Of a stretch of 64,000 nt of DNA, positions 8,102-32,505 are shown one piece after another; within the stretch, counting starts at the first letter, position 1; each line of letters begins with the position of its first letter. Under the pieces are notes generated by a model, which saw nothing but the letters and a program-made list of their open reading frames with translations, ran no database searches and was not told where the DNA came from. Made by a program: the position numbers and the translations under genes. Source of the stretch: a virus; IMG/VR virus record IMGVR_UViG_3300025889_000073, positions 32,001 to 96,000 of that record; one strand, 5' to 3'.

Positions 8102-8776
8102 ATGAAAAAAGCAATATTCACATATCACAATAGACAAATTTCGCCTAAAATTGTGACCTTACAACAAGAAGTCATTGCTAAATTTAGTTCAAAACTAGAT
8201 ATTGACTTTAAAAAGGCGTTTTATTCTGAACCGGATGGTGTAGTTTATCCGGATAATGTGATTGATGTATATTTGAATGAATTATTTTATGAACATGAGT
8301 ATGATTCTGTTTTAATTTTAGACATTGATTGTATTCCATTGAATAATGATGCTCTAGAAACTACGTTTGAAATGATTTCACGCAATTGGTTGGTTGGAAA
8401 TGCTCAGAGGTCACACCATTTAGATAATAATCAACACATTTTTTGTGGAGCTTCTTGTGTTGGAATTTCCAAACAACTTTATGAAGAATTGGGTAAACCT
8501 TCAGCTGAACCTAGTTCTAGGTCCGATATTTGTGAGGAATATACTTGGTTAGCTGAAGAAACAGGAAAAACTGTTAAATTTTTCAAACCATTAGGATATC
8601 AAAAACTTCCATATAATGAAACAAAACCTTGGACACTAAATCATGAAATGAATTCTTATGGAATTGGCACAACTTTTTGTCACGATGATATTCCTTTCTA
8701 TTATCATCTTTTCCAATCAAGATTAGGTTTATATGATGATTTGTTTATTAGAAAGTGTGAATCAATATTGAGATAA
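8102..8776 (+). CDS. putative GT-A glycosyltransferase
   Basis: DxD motif (ILDIDCIP); next to sugar-nucleotide genes. Confidence 0.6.
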   Translation: MKKAIFTYHNRQISPKIVTLQQEVIAKFSSKLDIDFKKAFYSEPDGVVYPDNVIDVYLNELFYEHEYDSVLILDIDCIPLNNDALETTFEMISRNWLVGNAQRSHHLDNNQHIFCGASCVGISKQLYEELGKPSAEPSSRSDICEEYTWLAEETGKTVKFFKPLGYQKLPYNETKPWTLNHEMNSYGIGTTFCHDDIPFYYHLFQSRLGLYDDLFIRKCESILR

Positions 8777-8778
8777 AA

Positions 8779-8854
8779 GCCGGTTTAGCTCATTTGGTAG
8801 AGCAACGCACTTGTAATGCGTAGGTGGTCAGTTCGAATCCGACAACCGGCACCA
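8779..8854 (+). tRNA. tRNA-Thr(UGU)
   Basis: cloverleaf, ACGCA-CT-TGT-AA-TGCGT, GTTCGAATC, CCA end. Confidence 0.95.
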
Positions 8855-8873
8855 TATTAAAGGAGAAATAAAA

Positions 8874-8921
8874 ATGACAATTGAAGAATATTGGAAGTGG
8901 ATACACGAAAACGTACAATAA
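8874..8921 (+). CDS. micro-ORF MTIEEYWKWIHENVQ
   Basis: strong AAGGAG SD; lies between two tRNAs. Confidence 0.45.
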   Translation: MTIEEYWKWIHENVQ

Positions 8922-8932
8922 AAATTTGTTAT

Positions 8933-9017
8933 GCGACTGTGGCGGAATAGGTAGACGCAACAGACTTAAAATCTGTCGGCTTAGGCCGTGCCGGTTCGAT
9001 TCCGGCCAGTCGTACCA
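8933..9017 (+). tRNA. tRNA-Leu(UAA)
   Basis: ACAGA-CT-TAA-AA-TCTGT, long variable arm, CCA. Confidence 0.95.
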
Positions 9018-9020
9018 ATT

Positions 9021-9097
9021 CTGACCATAGTTCAGCTGGATAGAACAACAGCCTTCTAAGCTGTGGGTCGGGGGTTCGAATCCCTCTGGTCAGGCCA
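9021..9097 (+). tRNA. tRNA-Arg(UCU)
   Basis: ACAGC-CT-TCT-AA-GCTGT, CCA. Confidence 0.95.
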
Positions 9098-9099
9098 AT

Positions 9100-9127
9100 T
9101 CCTCGATAGCTCAGTTGGTAGAGCAGT
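9100..9127 (+). pseudogene. truncated tRNA 5' fragment (Asn-like)
   Basis: TCCTCGA-TA-GCTCAGTTGGTAGAGC-AGT: acceptor 5' strand and D arm only. Confidence 0.7.
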
Positions 9128-9204
<77 letters not shown>

Positions 9205-9208
9205 TTAT

Positions 9209-9283
9209 GTGAATGTGGTCGAATGGTTAGGCACCGGATTGCAAATCCGGACTATGCAGGTTCGAATCCTGTCATTCACTCCA
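9209..9283 (+). tRNA. tRNA-Cys(GCA)
   Basis: CCGGA-TT-GCA-AA-TCCGG, U discriminator, CCA. Confidence 0.95.
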
Positions 9284-9284
9284 G

Positions 9285-9360
<76 letters not shown>

Positions 9361-9371
9361 TATATATTATT

Positions 9372-9764
9372 ATGAAGAAAATACTTGTTAATGGAACTTT
9401 TGATATTTTACACATTGGTCACATATCATTATTGAATTATGCTAAAGGCCTTGGTGATACTTTAACTGTTGCGATTGATGCTGATAAACGGGTAAAAGAA
9501 AAAAAAGGTGATAGCCGTCCAATAAATAATCAGTATGATAGAATGGTGATGTTAAATAATTTGAAATCTGTTGACAATGTTATTCTTTTTCATACTGATG
9601 AAGATTTGATAGATATAATTAAGAAACACGATGTTTTGGTTAAAGGCTCTGATTATAAAGGTAAAAGTATAATTGGAGAGAAATATGCTAAGGAATTGAT
9701 TTACTATGACCGAATTGAACCCTACTCAACAACAAAAACGATTGAATATATTGTGTCTAGGTGA
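9372..9764 (+). CDS. heptose-1-phosphate nucleotidyltransferase (HldC / RfaE domain II-like)
   Basis: GTFDILHIGH, KGxxRPIN, KGSDY and STT motifs. Confidence 0.85.
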   Translation: MKKILVNGTFDILHIGHISLLNYAKGLGDTLTVAIDADKRVKEKKGDSRPINNQYDRMVMLNNLKSVDNVILFHTDEDLIDIIKKHDVLVKGSDYKGKSIIGEKYAKELIYYDRIEPYSTTKTIEYIVSR

Positions 9765-10512
9765 TTCTTGTATTGACTCCTACCAATTTGGTAATGTCAA
9801 ACGACTAAGTCCCGAAGCACCTGTTCCAATTTTTGAACCAACTGAAAAAATTGTTTCACAAGGAATGGTTACAAATGTTGTAAATAATTTTTTGAAGTTA
9901 GGAGTTACGACTTGTTGTTTATCTGGCCAAGATTATTCAGTTAAAAAAAGATTTATCGATTCTGCTACAAAAAAACATATAATGCGACTTGATGAAAATA
10001 AAATTAGTGACCCTATCAAATTTGAAACTGTAGTTAGAAATTTGCAATTGATGAAACAAGTTGATGCTATTGTAATTTCCGATTATGACAAAGGTTCTAT
10101 TTCAGATAAGTTATTAACGGATTTAAGATTTCATCTTCCTAATGAATTTCATTGTCCGGTTTTTATTGATACGAAGAAAAAAGATTTGGCACGGTTTGAT
10201 GATTGGTTTGTTAAAATAAACAAAAGAGAATTTGATTCTGCAACATCCACTTGTAAAAATTTAATTGTAACTTTAGGTGAAAAAGGTACTTTGGTTTGGA
10301 ATGACACAAAAACTGTACCAACCAAAAAAGTTGATGTTATTGATGTATGTGGTGCCGGCGATACTTATTTGGCTGCGTTTACTTACAAATACTTATTGAC
10401 TAAAGATGTTTATGAAGCTGTAAATTTTGCACATAAAGCAGCAGCTGTTACAGTACAAAAAATTGGAGTTTATGCGCCGACATTGGAGGAAATAAATGTA
10501 CATAACTGGTAA
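9706..10512 (+). CDS. PfkB-family heptose-7-phosphate kinase (HldA / RfaE domain I-like)
   Basis: RLSPEAPVP, ISDYDKG, VTLGEKG, DVCGAGD. Confidence 0.85.
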   Translation: MTELNPTQQQKRLNILCLGDSCIDSYQFGNVKRLSPEAPVPIFEPTEKIVSQGMVTNVVNNFLKLGVTTCCLSGQDYSVKKRFIDSATKKHIMRLDENKISDPIKFETVVRNLQLMKQVDAIVISDYDKGSISDKLLTDLRFHLPNEFHCPVFIDTKKKDLARFDDWFVKINKREFDSATSTCKNLIVTLGEKGTLVWNDTKTVPTKKVDVIDVCGAGDTYLAAFTYKYLLTKDVYEAVNFAHKAAAVTVQKIGVYAPTLEEINVHNW

Positions 10513-10852
10513 AATTGATAAAGGTTGGGGACACGAAGACATTTGGGTTTCTAATGAAAAGTATTGCAGCAAGTTTTTACATTTTAAAAAAGACGCAAAA
10601 TTTTCAATGCACTTTCATGCTGAAAAGGAAGAAACTTGGTATATAATGAGTGGTGAATTTTTATTGCGAGTAATTGATTTGGATGATGCTAGTCAATACG
10701 AATTTGTTTTGACTAAAGGTGAAGTGTGGCACAATAAAAAATTACAACCACATCAATTGGTTTGTGTTGAAGAAGGAACTATTTTAGAAGTTTCTACTCC
10801 AGATTCTACTGAAGACAACTATAGGATTTTACCCGGAGATTCTCAAACGTGA
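10496..10852 (+). CDS. cupin (sugar isomerase-like)
   Basis: KGWG, SMHFHxxKEETW, PH...EVST. Confidence 0.75.
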   Translation: MYITGKIDKGWGHEDIWVSNEKYCSKFLHFKKDAKFSMHFHAEKEETWYIMSGEFLLRVIDLDDASQYEFVLTKGEVWHNKKLQPHQLVCVEEGTILEVSTPDSTEDNYRILPGDSQT

Positions 10853-11619
10853 AGATACTCGTAACTGGTTATAAAGGCTTTATTGGTTCACATATGGCTA
10901 GTTCGTTGAGTGAGCATGATGTTGAAGTTTATGATTGGGAACAACCTTATCCTGGTGTTATGGATTATGATTGGGTTATTCACATAGGAGGAATTTCATC
11001 AACAACTGAACGTAATATTGAAAAGATATTGCGGCAAAATTATGATTTTTCTTGCCGACTGTTTGATGATTGCAAAACTTTCGGAGTCAATTTTCAATTC
11101 GCTTCATCTGCTTCTGTATATGGATTAGGATTAGATTTTAGAGAAAATTCACCACCAGACCCAAGAACGCCTTATGCTTGGTCTAAATATCTTTTTGAAC
11201 GATATGCTATGAAAAATTTAGGCGGCAACATTGTTCAAATATTTCGTTATTTTAATGTGTATGGTCCTGGTGAAGAACACAAAGGAGACCAAGCCAGTCC
11301 ATTTACACAATTTGAGAGACAGGTTAAGAAAACCGGTCAGGTTAAAGTTTTCCGTGGAAGTGACGAATTCCGTAGAGACTTTATTCATGTTGATAAAATA
11401 GTATCTTTACATAAAAGTTTTTTGAATATACCGGAAAGTGGCATATGGAACTTTGGTACAGGCCGAACCATGAGTTTTATGGAAATAGCCAAAAAATTTA
11501 CTGATAATATAGTTGAAGTGGATGTACCGGAAAAATTAAAAGATAGTTATCAAAGATACACCTGTGCTGACCCAGCAAAGTTAAAATTGACTTTGAGGAC
11601 ATATAGTTCGACTAAATAG
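10849..11619 (+). CDS. ADP-L-glycero-D-manno-heptose 6-epimerase-like extended SDR
   Basis: TGxxGFIG, GGISSTTE, ASSASVYG, YxxSK, RYFNVYGPGEEHKG. Confidence 0.8.
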   Translation: MKILVTGYKGFIGSHMASSLSEHDVEVYDWEQPYPGVMDYDWVIHIGGISSTTERNIEKILRQNYDFSCRLFDDCKTFGVNFQFASSASVYGLGLDFRENSPPDPRTPYAWSKYLFERYAMKNLGGNIVQIFRYFNVYGPGEEHKGDQASPFTQFERQVKKTGQVKVFRGSDEFRRDFIHVDKIVSLHKSFLNIPESGIWNFGTGRTMSFMEIAKKFTDNIVEVDVPEKLKDSYQRYTCADPAKLKLTLRTYSSTK

Positions 11620-27192: not shown

Positions 27193-27858
27193 ATGAATTT
27201 TTGTCATGTTAAATTGGATGAGTTGAATTTCGAAATGGAATCAGAAACCACGGAAAGGGGTAGAGTCTATAAAGTTCCAGGAGGAGGACTCTACCCTTCT
27301 ATCACAACAGTATTATCATCATACAATAAAAAAGCTCTGATGGAATGGCGCAAAAGAGTTGGTGAAGAAGAAGCTAATCGTGTAGCTAAAGCTGCATCTG
27401 GTCGTGGAACCAGATTACACAATACGGTTGAGAAATATCTCCTTAATGAGTTGACTGACGTTAAAATAAAAACTATGATGCCTGACATTAAGGAAATGTT
27501 TTTCGATATGCGTAAAATCATTGATGAGAATATTGGTGATATTTATGGTATTGAACAACCACTTTATTCCCACAAATTAAGACTCGCAGGCCGTTGTGAT
27601 TGTATTGCGGAATGGAATGGACAGTTATCAATCGTGGACTGGAAGACCGCAAGTAGAGCCAAAGACAAAGAACATATAAAGAACTATTTTATGCAGGCTA
27701 CGGCTTATGCAGAAATGTTTGAAGAACTGACCGGAAAGGCAATAGACACAATTGTTGTGGCGATAGCTGTGCAAAGTGAATCTCCGCAGGTGTTCATTGA
27801 GAGTAAGTATAAATACCTTCTCCCTTTAAATGAATATAACGAAAGGTACCAGAGATGA
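27193..27858 (+). CDS. PD-(D/E)XK exonuclease (Cas4/RecB-like)
   Basis: YPSITTVL, RGTRLH, AGRCD, VDWKT, QATAY. Confidence 0.85.
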   Translation: MNFCHVKLDELNFEMESETTERGRVYKVPGGGLYPSITTVLSSYNKKALMEWRKRVGEEEANRVAKAASGRGTRLHNTVEKYLLNELTDVKIKTMMPDIKEMFFDMRKIIDENIGDIYGIEQPLYSHKLRLAGRCDCIAEWNGQLSIVDWKTASRAKDKEHIKNYFMQATAYAEMFEELTGKAIDTIVVAIAVQSESPQVFIESKYKYLLPLNEYNERYQR

Positions 27859-28217
27859 AAAGTATACTGGCAGCGCTTTTGATTATGTTGCCGGTGATTG
27901 GTTTTGCTGAACCAAAAAAGAAAGAAGAATCTAAGCCGTTAATGATGAATGTGGAAACAATGTGCAATGATTCATCATTATTAGATTTGGTTATGTTTAA
28001 ATATGGTGAAATGCCTGTTATAAAAATGGAATCAATTCGTAGTTTAACTAAAGGAGATGATACTACGTCATTTGTTTCAGTTTTATTTGTTAATCAAAAA
28101 ACAAGAAGTTGGACTTTGATTGAAGAACGAGGACCCTTATATTGTGTTATTGGTGTTGGAGTGAACATTCGAATTTTTTCTGATAAACAATCTGAGGAAC
28201 AAACTAAATATTATTGA
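27855..28217 (+). CDS. exported hypothetical protein
   Basis: signal peptide, paired Cys. Confidence 0.65.
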   Translation: MKSILAALLIMLPVIGFAEPKKKEESKPLMMNVETMCNDSSLLDLVMFKYGEMPVIKMESIRSLTKGDDTTSFVSVLFVNQKTRSWTLIEERGPLYCVIGVGVNIRIFSDKQSEEQTKYY

Positions 28218-28220
28218 TAT

Positions 28221-28567
28221 ATTGCTGTATGAAGCAATGAGAAAGGTGTTCTGGACGGCGGTTCGATTCCGCCCACCTCCACCATAAGCACACTGGCCTT
28301 TGGGTGTAGTCCGTAAGGATCAAGAGATAATTTCAAAGACCCCATATAACCAAGTTAGTGTGCTTTTGATGGGGGTGTACAGGTTTCGACAGGGCAATGA
28401 GTAACAGAGTGGACAGCAGGGCAATGTGAAAGCCCTTAGGGTTGAGACTACTCGGCCGAAGAAGCAAAAAAAGTAAACGCAAACGATGAAGTTTACGCAC
28501 TAGCTGCCTAATAAAAGGTAAGCAGGAGTTTTTGGAGGTTTTGACTTGGCAACAGAACAAAACCTCC
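28221..28567 (+). ncRNA. ssrA: circularly permuted two-piece tmRNA, tag ANDEVYALAA
   Basis: acceptor piece with T-arm and CACCTCC-ACCA ends at 28284; coding piece starts GGGGGTG...TTCGAC at 28371 (G3:U70); tag 28479-28511. Confidence 0.92.
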
Positions 28568-28599
28568 TTTCGGAAAAGTATTGAAAAGAGTGAAAAGAT

Positions 28600-28929
28600 A
28601 TGATTGGTATAGATTTAACTAGAATTTCTAGGTTTGAAGGTATTGATTTAGAACGCCTTGGTATGAAATTAGGTCATAAATTAGATAGTCCAAAAACTGC
28701 TGCTAAAGTTTGGGCCTGTCTTGAGGCTTTAACAAAAGCTGAAGGAAAAAAGTTTAACCCCAAAAATATAAAGTTACTTTTTAACGTAGCCTGTGCGCCA
28801 ACGGTAAAAGGTGTTGACCCTAATCCTATGGTTTATTCTGACCGTGTATTATCTGGTGAATATATATTATCTTTAACCCATGAAGGCGACTATGTTGCCG
28901 TTGTTGCTTTGCGTAAGGAAATGAAATGA
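28600..28929 (+). CDS. acpS: holo-ACP synthase (4'-phosphopantetheinyl transferase)
   Basis: IGIDL..ISRF, WACLEALTKA, LSLTHEGDY. Confidence 0.8.
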   Translation: MIGIDLTRISRFEGIDLERLGMKLGHKLDSPKTAAKVWACLEALTKAEGKKFNPKNIKLLFNVACAPTVKGVDPNPMVYSDRVLSGEYILSLTHEGDYVAVVALRKEMK

Positions 28930-29189
28930 CAAGAGAAGAAGTGATTAATCAAATAAGTGAACTTTTTAATTCCAAATATGGCATTTTGTTGACAGATTAT
29001 CCTGAAGATACTGATGTTACACTATTCGCTGAAATCAATGATAAATTAGATTCTATTGAATTTATGAATTTTATTTTTGATGTTGAGGATATGTTTGAGA
29101 TTAGAGATGCTGGTGACAATGGTGCACCAACAAAATTAGGTGAATTATACGATATGTTCGAAAAAGCTATTTTGGAAAAACAAAAATGA
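28926..29189 (+). CDS. acyl carrier protein
   Basis: acidic, 87 aa, LDSIE (Ser43)...VEDMFEI. Confidence 0.85.
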   Translation: MTREEVINQISELFNSKYGILLTDYPEDTDVTLFAEINDKLDSIEFMNFIFDVEDMFEIRDAGDNGAPTKLGELYDMFEKAILEKQK

Positions 29190-29971
29190 AAAATCTTTTT
29201 AGGGGAACATCGAAAAATTCTCAAATAGTCATAGTGTCTCAAGTTATATTGGGAACATTATCGGGAATATATTTCTTGTTTACCGGTGCATATAGTTATA
29301 TTTGGTATGCATTTATAATGTTTTTCGTTTTCAATCATTTTTTCCACAACGTAGCACTACATAGATATTTTTCACATAAAGCTTTTAAGACAAACAAATT
29401 TTGGCATATTTTTATGGCCATGTTTTCACCATTAGCTTCTGCGGGTTCTCCTTATGGTTATGCCATGGCACATAGAACTCATCATATGTATTCTGATGGA
29501 GAAAAAGACCCAACGAATTTAAATCAAGGCCTTTTGAACGTGGCTTTTTTTCGATGGAACTTAAAACACGTTCCATTACCAATTATGAGAAGTTTGGGTA
29601 ATGATAAGTGGATTATGTTATCACATAATTACTATGTCGGTATAATTTTACTTTTCTGGTTGACATTGATGATTATTGATGTTAGACTGGCCTTGATGTA
29701 TAATTTGGCCGGCCTGTTTATGTTTTTTGAATATTGTGTTATTAATATTGTCAATCATTCTGGATTGCCTTTTTCTTATCGAAATCACGACACCAAAGAC
29801 AATACAACAAATGATTTATTTACAGGACTATTTTGTGGTGACTGGCACAATAATCATCACAATAAGGCCACCAATTGGAATCAAAGGGAGAACTGGTGGG
29901 AGTTTGATATACCCGCACAAATGATAAAGATGATTAAATATGATGATGCAGATGATAAAGCATATAATTAA
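29186..29971 (+). CDS. membrane fatty-acid desaturase (delta-9-like)
   Basis: His boxes HRYFSH, HRTHH, HNNHH; TM segments. Confidence 0.9.
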   Translation: MKNLFRGTSKNSQIVIVSQVILGTLSGIYFLFTGAYSYIWYAFIMFFVFNHFFHNVALHRYFSHKAFKTNKFWHIFMAMFSPLASAGSPYGYAMAHRTHHMYSDGEKDPTNLNQGLLNVAFFRWNLKHVPLPIMRSLGNDKWIMLSHNYYVGIILLFWLTLMIIDVRLALMYNLAGLFMFFEYCVINIVNHSGLPFSYRNHDTKDNTTNDLFTGLFCGDWHNNHHNKATNWNQRENWWEFDIPAQMIKMIKYDDADDKAYN

Positions 29972-30083
29972 TCGAATATATCGCCTTTTGGGTGGTGAAT
30001 ATGTTTGGTGGCAAACTTTAGGATATTTAATCATACACTCATTAATTTTTTATCAAGTTGTGTACTTGGAATATATTAAATGA
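29940..30083 (+). CDS. small membrane peptide (up to 47 aa)
   Basis: MMMQMIKH...LGYLIIHSLIFYQVVYLEYIK; ATGA overlap with fabF. Confidence 0.5.
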   Translation: MMMQMIKHIINRIYRLLGGEYVWWQTLGYLIIHSLIFYQVVYLEYIK

Positions 30084-31273
30084 ACAGACGAGTTGTTATT
30101 ACTGGTATTGGATGTGTCACACCAATTGGTGTTTCTTATACTGAAGTCAAAGATTCTTTGATGACCGGTAAATCTGGTATCAAATATTATGAAGACATAA
30201 AAGCAAATCTTGGTCGAGTTGAGTTTGATATTGATTCACAAATTGAACCGTTAGACCAAACTATCACAGATAGAATTTCCAGATTTGCATGGTATTCTTA
30301 TTTGAAATGTATAGAAGATGCCAAAGTTACAAGTGAAGATGTTGATGGAATTTTCTTTGGTGTTGGTTTTTGTGGCAGTTATACGATTGAGAACACTTTT
30401 CCAGAATATTTAAAAAATCGCCGGGCAAGACCAAACACTTTAGTTAATATTTGTCCTAATTCTCCTGCTTGTTTCATTGCACTCAAGGAAAAAATTACAG
30501 GCATAAATTTTACATATAATAACGCTTGTGCTTCATCAACTTTAGCTTTGGGTGAAGCATATGAAAAAATTTCAAATGGCCAATGTGATGGTATGATTGT
30601 CGGCGGCACAGAATCCTCCGTTAACGATTATGGCATCACAACGTGGCACGGAATGAGAGCTATATCACCAAAAGATGAAGGTCCAACAGCGTGTAGACCT
30701 TTTTCTAAAGATAGAACTGGTGTTGTTGTGGCTGAAGGTTGTGCTGTTTTTTATTTGGAAGAATATGAAAAAGCTAAAGCTCGTGGCGCTAAAATTTATG
30801 CTGAGATATTTGGATATGGAACATCATGGGGCACAGAGTCTATGACCAAACCTAGTGTCGAAGGTGAAAAGAGGGCTATATTAAAAGCTATAGATAAAAT
30901 ACCACAAGGCAGAAAGGTAACCTTTATATCAGCTCATGGTACAGCTACTCCTACTGGTGATATGGTTGAACTACAAGCTATTAGTGAATGTTTTGGAGAG
31001 GAAGTTGAGGAAATTGCAATCACCTCGACAAAATCTCTACACGGTCATACACTAGGTGCCGCAGGGGCAATTGAAACTTTAGGATGTATTGCCGTTTTAG
31101 AAGAAGATAGAATTATACCAAATTGGCATTTAGGTGAACACGACCCGAATACGCCAGAAAATGTATTCTTACCCACTAAACCTATTGACAAAAAGCAGGA
31201 TTTGTGTTTTAATAACTCATTTGCTTTTGGTGGCAGCAATGCCGTTTTAGTTCTTGGTAAATGTTTGGAGTGA
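30080..31273 (+). CDS. fabF: beta-ketoacyl-ACP synthase II-like
   Basis: RRVVITGIG, NACASS, AHGTAT, KSLHGHTLGAAG, NSFAFGG. Confidence 0.92.
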   Translation: MNRRVVITGIGCVTPIGVSYTEVKDSLMTGKSGIKYYEDIKANLGRVEFDIDSQIEPLDQTITDRISRFAWYSYLKCIEDAKVTSEDVDGIFFGVGFCGSYTIENTFPEYLKNRRARPNTLVNICPNSPACFIALKEKITGINFTYNNACASSTLALGEAYEKISNGQCDGMIVGGTESSVNDYGITTWHGMRAISPKDEGPTACRPFSKDRTGVVVAEGCAVFYLEEYEKAKARGAKIYAEIFGYGTSWGTESMTKPSVEGEKRAILKAIDKIPQGRKVTFISAHGTATPTGDMVELQAISECFGEEVEEIAITSTKSLHGHTLGAAGAIETLGCIAVLEEDRIIPNWHLGEHDPNTPENVFLPTKPIDKKQDLCFNNSFAFGGSNAVLVLGKCLE

Positions 31274-31276
31274 AAA

Positions 31277-31501
31277 ATGCCGTTTTCGGTAAAACCAATT
31301 GAAGAAACTATCACACAGGTAGAACAACAGGTATCAAATATTAACATCGAAAAGTTCACAAATTCGGAAAAATTTGATGTACTTTTTGTCATTATGATTG
31401 TTTTGTTGATGTTTGCTTTTAGTCGTTTTACAGCAGTTATATTTAAACTTATAGGTGCTGTAATTATAGGCCTTGGTGTATATACATTGTTTTTAACATG
31501 A
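31277..31501 (+). CDS. small 2-TM protein
   Basis: hydrophobic C-terminal half. Confidence 0.6.
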   Translation: MPFSVKPIEETITQVEQQVSNINIEKFTNSEKFDVLFVIMIVLLMFAFSRFTAVIFKLIGAVIIGLGVYTLFLT

Positions 31502-31557
31502 AAGTCTTAATCAGTAAATATCGTAATCATTGGTTGTCTCCTTATACAAACTACTAA
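31498..31557 (+). pseudogene. truncated gene remnant MKVLISKYRNHWLSPYTNY
   Basis: ATGA-coupled start; resembles the N-terminus of the 5329 ORF. Confidence 0.4.
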
Positions 31558-31608
31558 ATAACAGACCAGGTAAACTGGTACACACACAAAACACACAAGG
31601 ATAAAACT

Positions 31609-31872
31609 ATGTCAAATTTAACGCCTTTTGAAATTCGACTAGAGTTACTGAAAATGGCTCAAACGATGGTCGAACAAGATTATTATGCAAAACGTGAAGT
31701 CATCGCAAATCAATATGCAACAGATTGTGATGATGCAAAACTCCAGGGTAAACAACCACCTACACATCCTGGATTTCCTCCATACCCATCAGAAGCAGAA
31801 GTCATTGCGAAAGCACAGACTTTGAATACCTTTGTTTCTAATCTTCCTTTAGAATCTAAGAAGAAGCCTTGA
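31609..31872 (+). CDS. phage protein (TPFEIRLELLKMA family)
   Basis: TAAATA element, CA-rich leader, AAGGA SD, own terminator. Confidence 0.8.
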   Translation: MSNLTPFEIRLELLKMAQTMVEQDYYAKREVIANQYATDCDDAKLQGKQPPTHPGFPPYPSEAEVIAKAQTLNTFVSNLPLESKKKP

Positions 31873-31878
31873 TGAACC

Positions 31879-31902
31879 AGCCGGCCTTGTGCCGGCTTTT
31901 TT
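31879..31902 (+). terminator. intrinsic terminator
   Basis: AGCCGGC-CTTGT-GCCGGCT followed by a T-tract. Confidence 0.85.
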
Positions 31903-31914
31903 ATAGGAAAAACA

Positions 31915-32505
31915 ATGTTAAAATACCTTTCAATATCACTTATTATTGTGATGTCGATGATTATTTTAGAAGAACCAAAAAGTACACAAATAGGAAACTC
32001 ATTTGTTGAAATGGTACCGGAGGTTGAACCGCCTACACCTCTCTTTGTTTTTAATCCTAAATTACAGGATTTTGATAAGAATGAGATGAAAGTCATACAA
32101 TGTTTAGCTGGCAATATTTATTTCGAAGCAAGAAATGAACCTGTAGATGGCCAAATTGCTGTGGCTTTTGTTACATTAAACAGAGTCAATTCTAAAGATT
32201 TTCCAAACGATGTTTGTTCCGTTGTCAAAGAGAAAAATGGCAGAACTTGTCAATTTTCTTGGTATTGTGAGAGTAAACCAAAAAGGCAATATTATAGAAT
32301 GAAATTGACGGATGATAGAAATGAAGTTTATAATAGAATTGTTGAATTGTCTATGTTTATATTGGTAAATCATGAGAAATTGGATGACCCCACACATGGT
32401 TCTCTATATTACCATGCAAATTACGTTAGACCAAATTGGAGACATCTACAAAAGAAAATTGTTATAGGCAGACACATATTTTATACAGAAAAAAATAATA
32501 TTTGA
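31915..32505 (+). CDS. SleB/CwlJ-like cell wall hydrolase
   Basis: CLAGNIYFEARNE, NRV, CQFSW, YYHANYV, IGRHIFY. Confidence 0.9.
   Translation: MLKYLSISLIIVMSMIILEEPKSTQIGNSFVEMVPEVEPPTPLFVFNPKLQDFDKNEMKVIQCLAGNIYFEARNEPVDGQIAVAFVTLNRVNSKDFPNDVCSVVKEKNGRTCQFSWYCESKPKRQYYRMKLTDDRNEVYNRIVELSMFILVNHEKLDDPTHGSLYYHANYVRPNWRHLQKKIVIGRHIFYTEKNNI

What the first reader, a model, noticed from the sequence alone, without database searches (positions are those of the whole stretch)
28600..31273. Phage-encoded self-priming acyl-chain operon: AcpS + ACP + membrane desaturase + small TM peptide + FabF
Seen: five consecutive overlapping ORFs (ATGA overlaps at 28926, 29186 and 30080). They encode a PPTase, an ACP with intact LDS serine, a three-His-box desaturase, an unannotated TM peptide, and a ketosynthase with an intact Cys-His-His triad. 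Known: lone desaturases occur in cyanophages. Dedicated ACP + KS (+ desaturase) sets in bacteria make specialised acyl chains, e.g. AcpXL/FabFXL for lipid A and JamB/JamC for ACP-bound desaturation. Inference: the phage activates its own divergent ACP and makes a dedicated unsaturated or elongated acyl chain for membrane/LPS remodelling, acylation of a phage protein, or a signalling/anti-defence lipid. The AcpS has WACLEA in place of the usual AxKEA, consistent with a private AcpS-ACP pair. No reductase, dehydratase or acyltransferase is visible in the window. I know of no description of such a complete operon in T4-like phages.
Basis: partly seen in the sequence, partly recalled or inferred. 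Interest (0 to 1): 0.88.

Follow-up and report, generated by a model that had tools for sequence, protein, structure and literature searches.

The report
Phage fatty-acid carrier, desaturase, ketosynthase cassette
A T4-like phage and about two dozen uncultured relatives carry a tightly packed, strongly conserved gene set (carrier-protein activator, private acyl carrier protein, membrane desaturase, chain-extending ketosynthase) that most likely builds unsaturated fatty chains on the phage's own carrier during infection; the single genes were known as viral helper genes, but I found no description of the linked module.

Summary
Four of the five reported genes are real and intact: an AcpS-type phosphopantetheinyl transferase, a divergent acyl carrier protein (ACP), a short SCD/delta-9-type membrane desaturase and a FabF-like ketosynthase (KS), joined by the reported ATGA overlaps. 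The 47-aa "TM peptide" is doubtful. It lies in a ~110-nt insertion found only in the closest relatives, has no ribosome-binding site, and fails a hydropathy test.

The module recurs in about 24 IMG/VR viral contigs and in further metagenome contigs. Most are T4-like phages; some are 138-364-kb jumbo phages. The core is ACP, then one to three desaturases, then KS. AcpS is an accessory: a complete 364-kb phage has the core but no PPTase. Selection is purifying (dN/dS 0.04 for desaturase and KS). The phage KSs form their own clade, at most 40% identical to cellular FabF. The nearest cellular desaturases (Bdellovibrionales, ~30%) also sit beside a dedicated ACP, a reductase and a KS.

The complete phage genome has no other fatty-acid gene, so host enzymes must finish the pathway.

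Best reading (~50%): carrier-tethered elongation and desaturation that feeds unsaturated acyl chains into host lipids.

The scan had already noted related cassettes on other phage genomes, including a published five-desaturase cryopeg phage.

Verdict: a new variant of known kinds.

The parts
28600..28929 (+). AcpS-type 4'-phosphopantetheinyl transferase, 109 aa. It is an accessory member of the module, present only in this lineage and its sister lineages.
   Evidence: Profile vs PDB finds holo-ACP synthase 5xuk, E=5.8e-5, full length. Model pLDDT 87; the top 50 Foldseek hits are all AcpS/PPT domains. D5, E42, K46 and H94 are invariant. dN/dS is 0.26 against L019.
28926..29189 (+). Divergent acyl carrier protein, 87 aa, pI 4.1, with the phosphopantetheine serine at Ser43 (motif KLDS).
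   Evidence: Profile vs PDB finds ACPs, best 1.2e-8. Model pLDDT 88.5 with Ser43 at the N-terminus of helix II. Structural neighbours are carrier proteins. The motif is invariant in 7 lineages. The family is discrete: about 73 clusters, then a gap to generic ACPs. There is no BLAST match to E. coli AcpP.
29186..29971 (+). Short (261 aa) membrane di-iron fatty-acid desaturase of the SCD/delta-9 type.
   Evidence: PF00487 9.7e-11. The profile matches SCD1 4ymk at 1e-23. Nine His ligands are invariant. dN/dS is 0.04.
29940..30083 (+). 47-codon ORF in a lineage-specific ~110-nt spacer. Probably not a gene, and not part of the conserved module.
   Evidence: It is absent in L001-L007, L008, L014 and other loci, where the Des stop overlaps the KS start. 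It is open in the 92%-identical L019-L022 with 4 synonymous and 5 non-synonymous changes. It has no SD, its hydropathy is below the TM threshold, and it has no family hit.
30080..31273 (+). FabF/FabB-type elongating beta-ketoacyl-ACP synthase, 397 aa, belonging to a phage-specific clade.
   Evidence: TIGR03150 fabF 2e-97, but 326 bits against a cut-off of 494. FabF 3o04 7e-72, with Cys/His/His/Lys/Phe aligned. The catalytic residues are invariant in an 11-sequence clade alignment. The phage clade is separate from cellular FabF/FabB. dN/dS is 0.04.
31277..31501 (+). 74-aa membrane protein (hydrophobic residues 29-74) directly after the KS. It is lineage-specific and its role is unknown.
   Evidence: It has a GGAG ribosome-binding site and a strong hydrophobic segment. 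dN/dS is 0.06 against L019-L021. It is not found in the 81% clade or beyond.
31879..31897 (+). GC-rich hairpin followed by a T-run: the likely terminator of the transcription unit that contains the cassette.
   Evidence: This is the best terminator-like site on the + strand in 27800-32000 (7 pairs, 6 GC).

Best explanation
The cassette is a carrier-tethered (thiotemplated) fatty-acyl tailoring module that the phage runs in the infected cell with help from the host's type II fatty acid synthase.

Proposed steps:
1. The phage AcpS converts the phage apo-ACP to holo-ACP. In lineages without AcpS, a host PPTase is assumed to do this.
2. Host FabD loads malonate onto the phage ACP.
3. The phage KS takes an acyl chain from the host pool onto its active-site Cys and condenses it with malonyl-phage-ACP. 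This moves the chain onto the phage carrier and adds two carbons. Host FabG, FabZ and FabI reduce the product.
4. The SCD/delta-9-type membrane desaturase, using host electron donors and O2, puts a cis double bond into the pantetheine-thioester-bound chain. Relatives with three or five desaturases would add several.
5. Host acyltransferases use the unsaturated acyl-ACP, changing membrane or envelope lipid unsaturation and chain length during infection.

Shown here: gene identities, intact catalytic residues, purifying selection, the conserved ACP -> Des(n) -> KS order across distant phages, and the absence of all other pathway genes from a complete genome. Inferred: every biochemical step, the substrate form used by the desaturase, and the fate of the product.
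For: 1. All four enzymes look competent.

2. In the phage KS clade (41% identity or more) an ACP gene lies immediately upstream of Des/KS in every locus whose upstream DNA is held. The architectures are AcpS-ACP-Des-KS, ACP-Des-KS, ACP-KS-Des, ACP-Des-Des-Des-KS and ACP-KS. They occur in T4-like and 138-364-kb jumbo phage contigs, usually with overlapping stop and start codons.

3. dN/dS is 0.04 for Des and KS, 0.15 for ACP and 0.26 for AcpS. The KS (81% identity to the sister clade) is better conserved than the flanking phage genes (64-69%).

4. The nearest cellular desaturases (Bdellovibrionales, ~30%) lie in a FabG-like reductase - ACP - Des - Des cluster with a KS alongside, or as Des-Des beside an ACP. 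The link between this desaturase subfamily and a dedicated carrier is therefore older than the phages.

5. The desaturase core matches stearoyl-CoA desaturase. That family acts on pantetheine thioesters, the same arm that ACP carries (established knowledge of SCD1).

6. Precedents for ACP-bound membrane desaturation exist: the JamB and cay/pgn desaturase triads (bioRxiv 10.1101/291195; PMC9828172).

7. A dedicated ACP plus KS pair relying on housekeeping FAS enzymes is the logic of NodF/NodE (my own knowledge; NodF 1fh1 is only a weak profile hit, E=0.5).

8. The complete genome has no FabD/G/Z/A, acyl-AMP ligase, acyltransferase or ferredoxin. This fits a module that plugs into host FAS.
Against: - There is no direct evidence that the desaturase uses acyl-ACP. 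Characterised viral relatives of the same broad type (cyanophage vFADs) desaturate C16 chains when expressed alone in yeast (PMC5776448).
- Some lineages have ACP-KS without a desaturase (L010/L128). Distant family members occur without an ACP or KS (Mosig, L016-L018).
- No ACP was recognised beside the KS in the five-desaturase locus L015.
- No thioesterase or acyltransferase is encoded, so the exit route is conjecture.
- Whether host FabD, FabG, FabZ and FabI accept this very divergent ACP is unknown. It has no BLAST similarity to E. coli AcpP.
- The host is unknown.
Confidence: 0.5

Rival explanations
1. The genes are a loose set of independent membrane-fluidity and lipid-supply helpers. 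The desaturase acts directly on membrane phospholipids, like cyanophage or cryopeg vFADs. The KS, ACP and AcpS simply sustain or boost host fatty-acid synthesis after host shut-off, for example FabF-like elongation of 16:1 to 18:1. They are adjacent only because they serve the same general purpose.
For: - The His boxes and best structural match are those of delta-9 acyl-lipid/acyl-CoA desaturases.
- Published viral desaturases are interpreted, and in one case assayed, as lipid desaturases that work alone (PMC5776448, PMC7300359).
- ACP-KS occurs without Des, and Des occurs without ACP/KS.
- E. coli FabF is the enzyme that makes cis-vaccenate from palmitoleate (established knowledge).
Against: - The ACP is not a copy of a housekeeping ACP. 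It belongs to a discrete phage family far from generic ACPs, which is not needed merely to top up the pool.
- The fixed order ACP -> Des -> KS with overlapping codons holds across about ten divergent lineages.
- The nearest cellular desaturases also sit beside a dedicated ACP.
- The KS falls below the NCBIfam FabF cut-off (326 vs 494 bits) and forms a separate clade.
Confidence: 0.3
2. The module makes a specialised secreted or bioactive lipid, such as a polyunsaturated, polyene or polyyne-like fatty acid or a signalling lipid, rather than bulk membrane lipid. This would be in the manner of the JamABC or cay/pgn clusters.
For: - The module has a dedicated ACP, and relatives carry three (L125) or five (L015) long-diverged desaturase paralogs, all with intact His ligands.
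- Polyyne pathways are thiotemplated and use desaturase triads (PMC9828172).
Against: - No acyl-AMP ligase, thioesterase or rubredoxin is present in the complete genome, although all are core to polyyne clusters.
- All phage desaturases have an HxxHH third box, not the QxxHH seen in the JamB-genus homologs.
- The window phage has only one desaturase.
Confidence: 0.12
3. The module is a host-takeover device that blocks host fatty-acid synthesis. Excess KS or a non-cognate ACP would sequester malonyl-ACP, FabD or other FAS enzymes, as FabF overproduction does in E. coli.
For: FabF overproduction is toxic in E. coli (my own knowledge, not checked here). The cassette lies in the early/middle gene region, next to replication genes.
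Against: - An inhibitor would not need intact catalytic residues in four enzymes.
- It would not show dN/dS of 0.04 on a desaturase, or multi-desaturase expansions.
Confidence: 0.04

Closest known systems
NodF/NodE of Rhizobium: a dedicated ACP plus a dedicated ketosynthase that make an unusual polyunsaturated acyl chain using housekeeping FAS enzymes (from my own knowledge).
   Same: Both have a small specialised ACP gene directly coupled to a FabF/FabB-like KS with a Cys-His-His triad. All reductive steps are borrowed from the cell's FAS II.
   Different: NodFE has no membrane desaturase and no PPTase, and its unsaturation comes from skipped reduction. It is cellular and symbiosis-linked. 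Sequence relation is only at family level (NodF 1fh1 E=0.5 against the phage ACP profile).
JamB/JamC and the bacterial polyyne cay/pgn cassettes: thiotemplated desaturation (bioRxiv 10.1101/291195; PMC9828172).
   Same: In both, membrane di-iron desaturases act on a chain held by a designated ACP encoded next to them. Several desaturases can work on one chain.
   Different: Those systems load the ACP with an acyl-AMP/acyl-ACP ligase and release the product with a thioesterase, and they often encode rubredoxin. The phage has none of these and has a KS instead. The desaturases of the JamB genera have a QxxHH third box, while all phage enzymes have HxxHH.
Viral fatty-acid desaturase auxiliary genes: cyanophage vFADs (Roitman et al., PMC5776448) and cryopeg/sea-ice virus vFADs, including two viruses with five copies each (Zhong et al. 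2020, PMC7300359).
   Same: These are phage-encoded SCD/DesC-like delta-9-type desaturases with three His boxes. The five-copy arrays resemble locus L015. The membrane-fluidity rationale is shared.
   Different: They are described as stand-alone genes acting on lipids. Neither paper mentions an ACP, ketoacyl synthase or PPTase (0 occurrences of 'acyl carrier' and 'ketoacyl' in both). The window's desaturase has no close match in GenBank phages; the best is Pelagibacter phage Mosig at 30% over 38% of the query.
Housekeeping FabF (KAS II) with AcpP and AcpS of bacterial FAS II.
   Same: The folds and catalytic residues are the same for KS, ACP and PPTase. FabF elongates palmitoleoyl-ACP in E. 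coli.
   Different: The KS is at most 40% identical to cellular FabF, scores below the NCBIfam equivalog cut-off and forms a separate clade. The ACP has no BLAST similarity to AcpP. The genes are not next to fabD, fabG or fabH.
Uncharacterised Bdellovibrionales clusters: a FabG-like reductase - ACP - Des - Des cluster with a KS alongside (locus L023), and Des-Des beside an ACP, radical-SAM enzymes and a PP-loop enzyme (L052).
   Same: They hold the closest cellular homologs of the phage desaturase (~30% identity, the same short ~250-270 aa form), in tandem copies beside a dedicated ACP and a KS.
   Different: They are cellular, include a reductase, and their KS is very divergent (long branch). 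Their function is unknown, so they do not explain the phage module.

Membership tests
AcpS-type (group I) phosphopantetheinyl transferase | Sequence match to the ACPS family above the curated threshold | tested here: not met
   Pfam PF01648 gives E=1.2e-3 and 19.3 bits against a cut-off of 25. The NCBIfam AcpS models give only E of 0.03 or worse.
AcpS-type (group I) phosphopantetheinyl transferase | AcpS alpha/beta fold of about 110-130 residues | tested here: met
   The AlphaFold model has pLDDT 87 and pTM 0.83. The Foldseek top 50 PDB hits are all AcpS or FAS PPT domains, with TM 0.6-0.73 and a best E of 4e-5. The profile finds 5xuk over its full length at E=5.8e-5.
AcpS-type (group I) phosphopantetheinyl transferase | Mg/CoA-binding residues: an N-terminal Asp, Glu and Lys in the central helix, and a C-terminal His | tested here: met
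   D5, E42, K46 and H94 are invariant in 5 sequences down to 44% identity. They align with the equivalent positions of 5xuk. Assigning their roles rests on my knowledge of B. subtilis and E. coli AcpS.
AcpS-type (group I) phosphopantetheinyl transferase | Transfers phosphopantetheine from CoA to the ACP serine; forms a trimer | not testable with these tools
   This needs an in vitro assay.
Acyl carrier protein (PP-binding) | Sequence match above curated thresholds | tested here: not met
   No Pfam PF00550 hit. NCBIfam ACP gives 4.5e-6 and 26.5 bits against a cut-off of 70. phrog_5934 ACP gives E=5e-3.
Acyl carrier protein (PP-binding) | Helical-bundle carrier fold with the conserved Asp-Ser at the N-terminus of helix II | tested here: met
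   The model has pLDDT 88.5 and helices 3-18, 33-37, 43-56 and 71-86, with Ser43 starting helix II. Structural neighbours are ACP, DltC and PCP carriers, with TM 0.6-0.75 and a best E of 9.5e-3. The profile finds ACP 2n50 at 1.2e-8. D42-S43 is invariant.
Acyl carrier protein (PP-binding) | Is phosphopantetheinylated and carries acyl chains | not testable with these tools
   This needs mass spectrometry of the expressed protein.
Membrane di-iron fatty-acid desaturase, SCD/DesC (delta-9) type | Pfam FA_desaturase above the gathering score, and a match to SCD1 structures | tested here: met
   PF00487 gives 42.3 bits against a cut-off of 29.7. The profile matches SCD1 4ymk at 1e-23 over chain residues 51-299.
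Membrane di-iron fatty-acid desaturase, SCD/DesC (delta-9) type | His boxes HxxxxH, HxxHH and HxxHH, plus the extra ligand His | tested here: met
   H59, H64, H96, H99, H100, H191, H221, H224 and H225 are invariant in 20-37 family members.
Membrane di-iron fatty-acid desaturase, SCD/DesC (delta-9) type | Regiospecificity (delta-9) and substrate form (lipid, CoA or ACP) | not testable with these tools
   The NCBIfam DesA-family model gives only 42 bits against a cut-off of 400. The protein is about 60-100 residues shorter than SCD1 or DesC.
JamB / polyyne-type ACP-dependent desaturase-acetylenase | QxxHH third box, and a cluster containing an acyl-AMP/ACP ligase and a thioesterase | tested here: not met
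   All phage enzymes have HxxHH, while the Moorena and Okeania homologs have QxxHH. The genome has no AMP-binding enzyme. Identity to the desaturases from those genera is only 24-27%.
Elongating beta-ketoacyl-ACP synthase (KAS I/II, FabB/FabF) | Two ketoacyl-synthase domains with the Cys-His-His triad, the active-site Lys and the gating Phe | tested here: met
   PF00109 4.7e-34 and PF02801 3e-26. The residues align with FabF 3o04. C150, H286, H323, K318 and F381 are invariant in the clade.
Housekeeping FabF (equivalog TIGR03150) | Score above the equivalog cut-off and placement among cellular FabF | tested here: not met
   326 bits against a cut-off of 494. Identity to cellular FabF is at most 40%. 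The phage KSs form one clade (SH-aLRT 92) apart from the cellular FabF/FabB clade (SH-aLRT 97) in a quick ML tree.

The most novel reading that the evidence does not exclude
The ACP -> desaturase(n) -> KS module is a viral, carrier-tethered aerobic pathway for polyunsaturated or otherwise unusual fatty acyl chains. The KS moves host chains onto a phage-private ACP and elongates them, and a series of specialised SCD-type desaturases (one here, three in L125, five in L015 and the cryopeg phages) work on the ACP-bound chain. The desaturases would then define a new ACP-dependent branch of the SCD family, shared with Bdellovibrionales, and infected cells would make lipids that their uninfected hosts cannot make.
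Probability: 0.2. Interest if true: 0.85.

Novelty: new variant of a known kind. Interest (0 to 1): 0.68.

Why it matters
Viral lipid genes have so far been treated as isolated 'membrane fluidity' helpers. This work shows that a whole group of T4-like and jumbo phages carries a selected, fixed-order module with its own carrier protein, chain-extending enzyme and, in some lineages, its own carrier activator.

If the chain is really built and desaturated on the phage carrier, phages do not merely tune host lipids. They would run a private branch of fatty-acid synthesis. That would also reveal an ACP-dependent class of SCD-type desaturases, which has uncharacterised cellular relatives in Bdellovibrionales.

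The idea is directly testable. The four genes are small and can be expressed together in a laboratory strain, with lipid and carrier-protein mass spectrometry as the read-out. The result would also bear on the published five-desaturase viruses of subzero brines.

Tried and rejected
- GenBank phage collection. There was no DNA match to the cassette. The KS protein hits at 39% or less were mostly unannotated or fragmentary records that look like host DNA. The only desaturase hit was Pelagibacter phage Mosig, which sits in a different context with no ACP or KS.
- A single-protein KS scan of IMG/VR found nothing. The desaturase query and a KS clade alignment were needed.
- Host inference. A BLAST of the adjacent permuted tmRNA against 401 Burkholderiales genomes gave only ~32-nt matches to the conserved T-arm, so no host could be assigned. 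There is no psbA, so this is probably not a typical cyanophage.
ACP-desaturase docking and expression were therefore not examined.
- Sigma-70-like promoter hits are not above chance (15 found against 17 expected).
- No ACP or AcpS was recognised among the unknown ORFs flanking the five-desaturase locus L015.
- No PPTase was found in four other cassette-bearing phage records with either PF01648 or my AcpS profile. The window itself scored 1.4e-57 as a positive control.
- The careful ML search for the KS tree did not finish in the time limit, so only the quick tree with SH-aLRT support is reported. The desaturase tree is FastTree and was used only qualitatively.
- A 192-236-aa ORF that follows the KS in several relatives looked like a candidate missing step. 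It belongs to phrog_11543 (unknown function), has no Pfam or PDB match, and is absent from the window.
- I considered and rejected the idea that the cassette is recently captured host DNA or an assembly chimera. It lies between phage genes in the same place in many independent contigs, and its GC content matches the surroundings.


Full report
**Setting.** The window is bases 32001-96000 of a single-contig 171,728-bp IMG/VR virus record that CheckV rates complete. It is a T4-like myovirus. It encodes gp32, gp59, gp33, baseplate and tail proteins, and its gp32 is 56-62% identical to that of Synechococcus myophages. It has no psbA. GC content is about 35% throughout, including the cassette. The host and environment could not be determined.

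**The observation.** The five ORFs are present as described, and the ATGA overlaps at 28926, 29186 and 30080 are real.
- The KS and the desaturase are clear by family models. PF00109 and PF02801 give 5e-34 and 3e-26, and PF00487 gives 1e-10, above its threshold.
- The KS aligns over its full length with FabF crystal structures, and its Cys, two His, Lys and gating Phe are in place.
- The two small proteins fall below all curated thresholds, so I tested them further.
- A profile of five AcpS-like sequences finds H. pylori holo-ACP synthase over its whole length (E=5.8e-5). An AlphaFold model (pLDDT 87) matches only AcpS/PPT domains in the PDB. The expected Asp, Glu, Lys and His are invariant.
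- A profile of seven ACP-like sequences finds ACPs (best 1.2e-8). The model (pLDDT 88.5) is a carrier-protein helical bundle with the invariant Asp-Ser at the start of helix II.
- The desaturase has all nine histidine ligands, and its profile matches the core of stearoyl-CoA desaturase SCD1 (1e-23).

**The 47-aa ORF.** This part does not hold up.
- In the sister clade (KS 81% identical) and in all more distant relatives, the desaturase stop codon overlaps the KS start. The ~110 nt that hold most of this ORF are missing there.
- Only the ~92%-identical relatives L019-L022 have the spacer. There the ORF stays open with four synonymous and five non-synonymous changes. That pattern is not distinguishable from neutrality (P=0.064).
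- It has no Shine-Dalgarno sequence, unlike ACP or orf74, and its hydropathy stays below a standard transmembrane threshold.
- I treat it as probably non-coding, and in any case as not part of the module.

**Conservation.** The cassette is not in cultured GenBank phages, but it is common in uncultured ones.
- Seven IMG/VR contigs carry AcpS (70% identical), ACP (73%), desaturase (74%) and KS (81%) between the same flanking phage genes as in the window.
- Metagenome contigs supply a graded series of KS relatives from 97% down to 42% before ordinary cellular FabF begins at 40% or less.
- Their contexts are T4-like phages. The cassette usually lies between a PD-(D/E)XK nuclease and the gp33-gp59-gp32 block. 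In one lineage it lies downstream of UvsX and a helicase.
- A survey with a KS clade alignment found about 24 IMG/VR contigs with a phage-clade KS, including records of 138-364 kb.
- The architectures are AcpS-ACP-Des-KS, ACP-Des-KS, ACP-KS-Des, ACP-Des-Des-Des-KS and ACP-KS.
- In every phage-clade locus whose upstream DNA is held, the ACP gene lies immediately upstream of the desaturase or KS. Beyond these genes, only phage replication genes and a cell-wall hydrolase recur nearby.
- AcpS is adjacent only in the window's lineage and its sister lineages. One phage has a canonical ACPS gene 5 kb away. A complete 364-kb phage with terminal repeats has no PPTase detectable by Pfam or by my profile, which scores the window at 1.4e-57. 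AcpS is therefore an accessory, and these ACPs can presumably be served by host PPTases.

**Selection and origin.**
- Against the 92%-identical relatives, dN/dS is 0.04 for the desaturase and KS, 0.15 for ACP and 0.26 for AcpS.
- In a quick maximum-likelihood tree, the 18 phage and metagenome KSs form one clade (SH-aLRT 92). It is separate from a clade holding E. coli FabF and FabB and the best cellular hits (SH-aLRT 97).
- The ACP family is discrete: about 73 sequence clusters score 71 bits or more, and then there is a gap to generic ACPs at about 41 bits. It has no BLAST similarity to E. coli AcpP.
- The desaturase belongs to a family of short (~250-265 aa) enzymes that is almost entirely metagenomic. 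Its nearest Atlas clusters are 72-94% viral.
- Its closest relatives in named bacterial genomes are only 24-34% identical.
- The best of these, in Bdellovibrionales, are again short and in tandem copies. One locus reads FabG-like reductase - ACP - Des - Des, with a divergent KS alongside. Another has Des-Des beside an ACP, radical-SAM enzymes and a PP-loop enzyme.
- In 62 of the 80 cellular loci the desaturase stands alone.

**What the phage lacks.** The complete genome has no match to FabD, FabG-type reductases, FabA/FabZ, acyl-AMP ligases, glycerolipid or lipid A acyltransferases, or 2Fe-2S ferredoxin. All other steps and the electron supply must come from the host.

**Mechanism.** The best-supported reading is a carrier-tethered tailoring module that plugs into host FAS II.
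- Holo-ACP is formed by the phage AcpS, or by a host PPTase in lineages that lack one.
- The KS condenses a host-derived acyl chain with malonyl-phage-ACP. This both elongates the chain and places it on the phage carrier, and host enzymes reduce it.
- The SCD-type desaturase introduces a double bond into the thioester-bound chain.
- Host acyltransferases consume the product.

The arguments for tethering are:
- the invariant ACP-first gene order with overlapping codons across about ten divergent lineages;
- the same linkage in the nearest cellular homologs;
- the fact that SCD-family enzymes already act on pantetheine thioesters (plus established knowledge);
- experimental precedents for ACP-dependent membrane desaturases.

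A dedicated ACP plus KS that borrows the rest of FAS II is the logic of NodF/NodE (my own knowledge).

The arguments against tethering are:
- viral delta-9-type desaturases work alone in yeast (PMC5776448);
- some lineages lack the desaturase;
- no exit enzyme is encoded.

I put the tethered model at about 0.5. The looser model of independent fluidity and lipid-supply helpers gets 0.3, a specialised bioactive lipid about 0.12, and a FAS-blocking takeover device about 0.04.

**Relation to known systems.**
- The phage enzymes are not JamB-type. The homologs from the JamB-bearing genera Moorena and Okeania have a QxxHH third box, while every phage enzyme has HxxHH. The ligase, thioesterase and rubredoxin of polyyne clusters are also absent.
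- The KS is FabF-like in fold and chemistry, but it fails the FabF equivalog cut-off and lies outside the cellular clade.
- Relatives with three (L125) or five (L015) desaturases have paralogs that fall into different old subclades shared with Bdellovibrionales, all with intact ligands. This suggests serial action on one chain.
- Five-copy desaturase viruses from Arctic cryopeg brine are published as membrane-fluidity helpers, without mention of a KS or ACP (PMC7300359).
- Viral 'fabF' appears only as an item in AMG lists.
- My literature searches found no description of the linked module.

**Earlier notes of this scan.** The same stretch was noted in an overlapping window. On other genomes the scan has recorded a KS plus five desaturases in a published cryopeg phage, an ACP + KAS II + desaturase set 'directly after the tmRNA' with AcpS 5 kb away, and ACP-desaturase islands with GNAT and PP-loop enzymes. 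These agree with what I found independently in L015, L010 and L052. They are leads, not support.

**Verdict.** This is a new variant of known kinds: thiotemplated fatty-acid tailoring, and viral lipid auxiliary genes. It is widespread in uncultured T4-like and jumbo phages and is testable by simple co-expression.

Noticed in passing
window 28223-28511 (Rfam span; the beta_tmRNA model covers 28167-28584): A circularly permuted (two-piece) tmRNA gene ends only a few bases before the AcpS start codon. It scores RF04321 133 bits and RF01850 102 bits, and ARAGORN reads the tag as ANDEVYALAA. Relatives keep a ~400-530-nt gap at the same place, and another scan note reports a similar cassette 'directly after the tmRNA' in a different genome. 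The tmRNA and the cassette may be co-transcribed.
   Followed up: partly
L015 1510-7107 (98-kb Logan contig) and L125 1435-5176 (146-kb IMG/VR contig): Relatives carry a KS followed by five desaturase paralogs (L015), or ACP-Des-Des-Des-KS (L125). All paralogs keep the nine His ligands and belong to different old subclades, so they are not recent duplicates.
   Followed up: partly
L023 3996-8098 (Bdellovibrio MAG) and L052 1950-8657 (Bacteriovoracaceae MAG): These are uncharacterised cellular clusters. L023 has a FabG-like reductase - ACP - Des - Des cluster with a divergent 397-aa KS on the opposite strand. L052 has two radical-SAM enzymes - Des - Des, then an ACP and a PP-loop ATPase. They hold the nearest cellular homologs of the phage desaturase.
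   Followed up: partly
L074, L077, L081, L083, L090 (Acidobacteriota/Terriglobia MAGs): Here, pairs of longer desaturases (in L074 one has HxxHH and one QxxHH) lie directly upstream of a 630-1190-aa PKS-type ketosynthase protein. This is a different, apparently undescribed desaturase-PKS linkage.
   Followed up: no
L019 7419-8006; L113 5184-5762; L115 4014-4724; L116 7858-8505: A Trp-rich 192-236-aa protein (phrog_11543, unknown function, no Pfam or PDB match) follows the KS in several lineages and in the window's closest relatives. It is missing from the window and from L020.
   Followed up: partly
window 31277-31501: A 74-aa protein with a long hydrophobic C-terminal half sits directly after the KS. 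It is under strong purifying selection against the close relatives (dN/dS 0.06) but is absent from the 81% clade.
   Followed up: partly
L016 and L017 (marine, Tara), L018, and L105 (Pelagibacter phage Mosig 59678-60328): Distant members of the short desaturase family sit among radical-SAM enzymes, 2OG/Asp-Arg hydroxylases, TauD-like dioxygenases and aminotransferases, with no ACP or KS. This is a separate viral oxygenase-rich island.
   Followed up: no
L011 10344-11484; compare window 8102-11619: In the lineage where the cassette lies downstream of UvsX and a helicase, a cytidylyltransferase-like gene and a PfkB kinase gene lie about 2 kb downstream of it. These are the same kinds of genes that another scan note reads as an NDP-heptose pathway in this window. 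A functional link between lipid and sugar genes is not shown.
   Followed up: no
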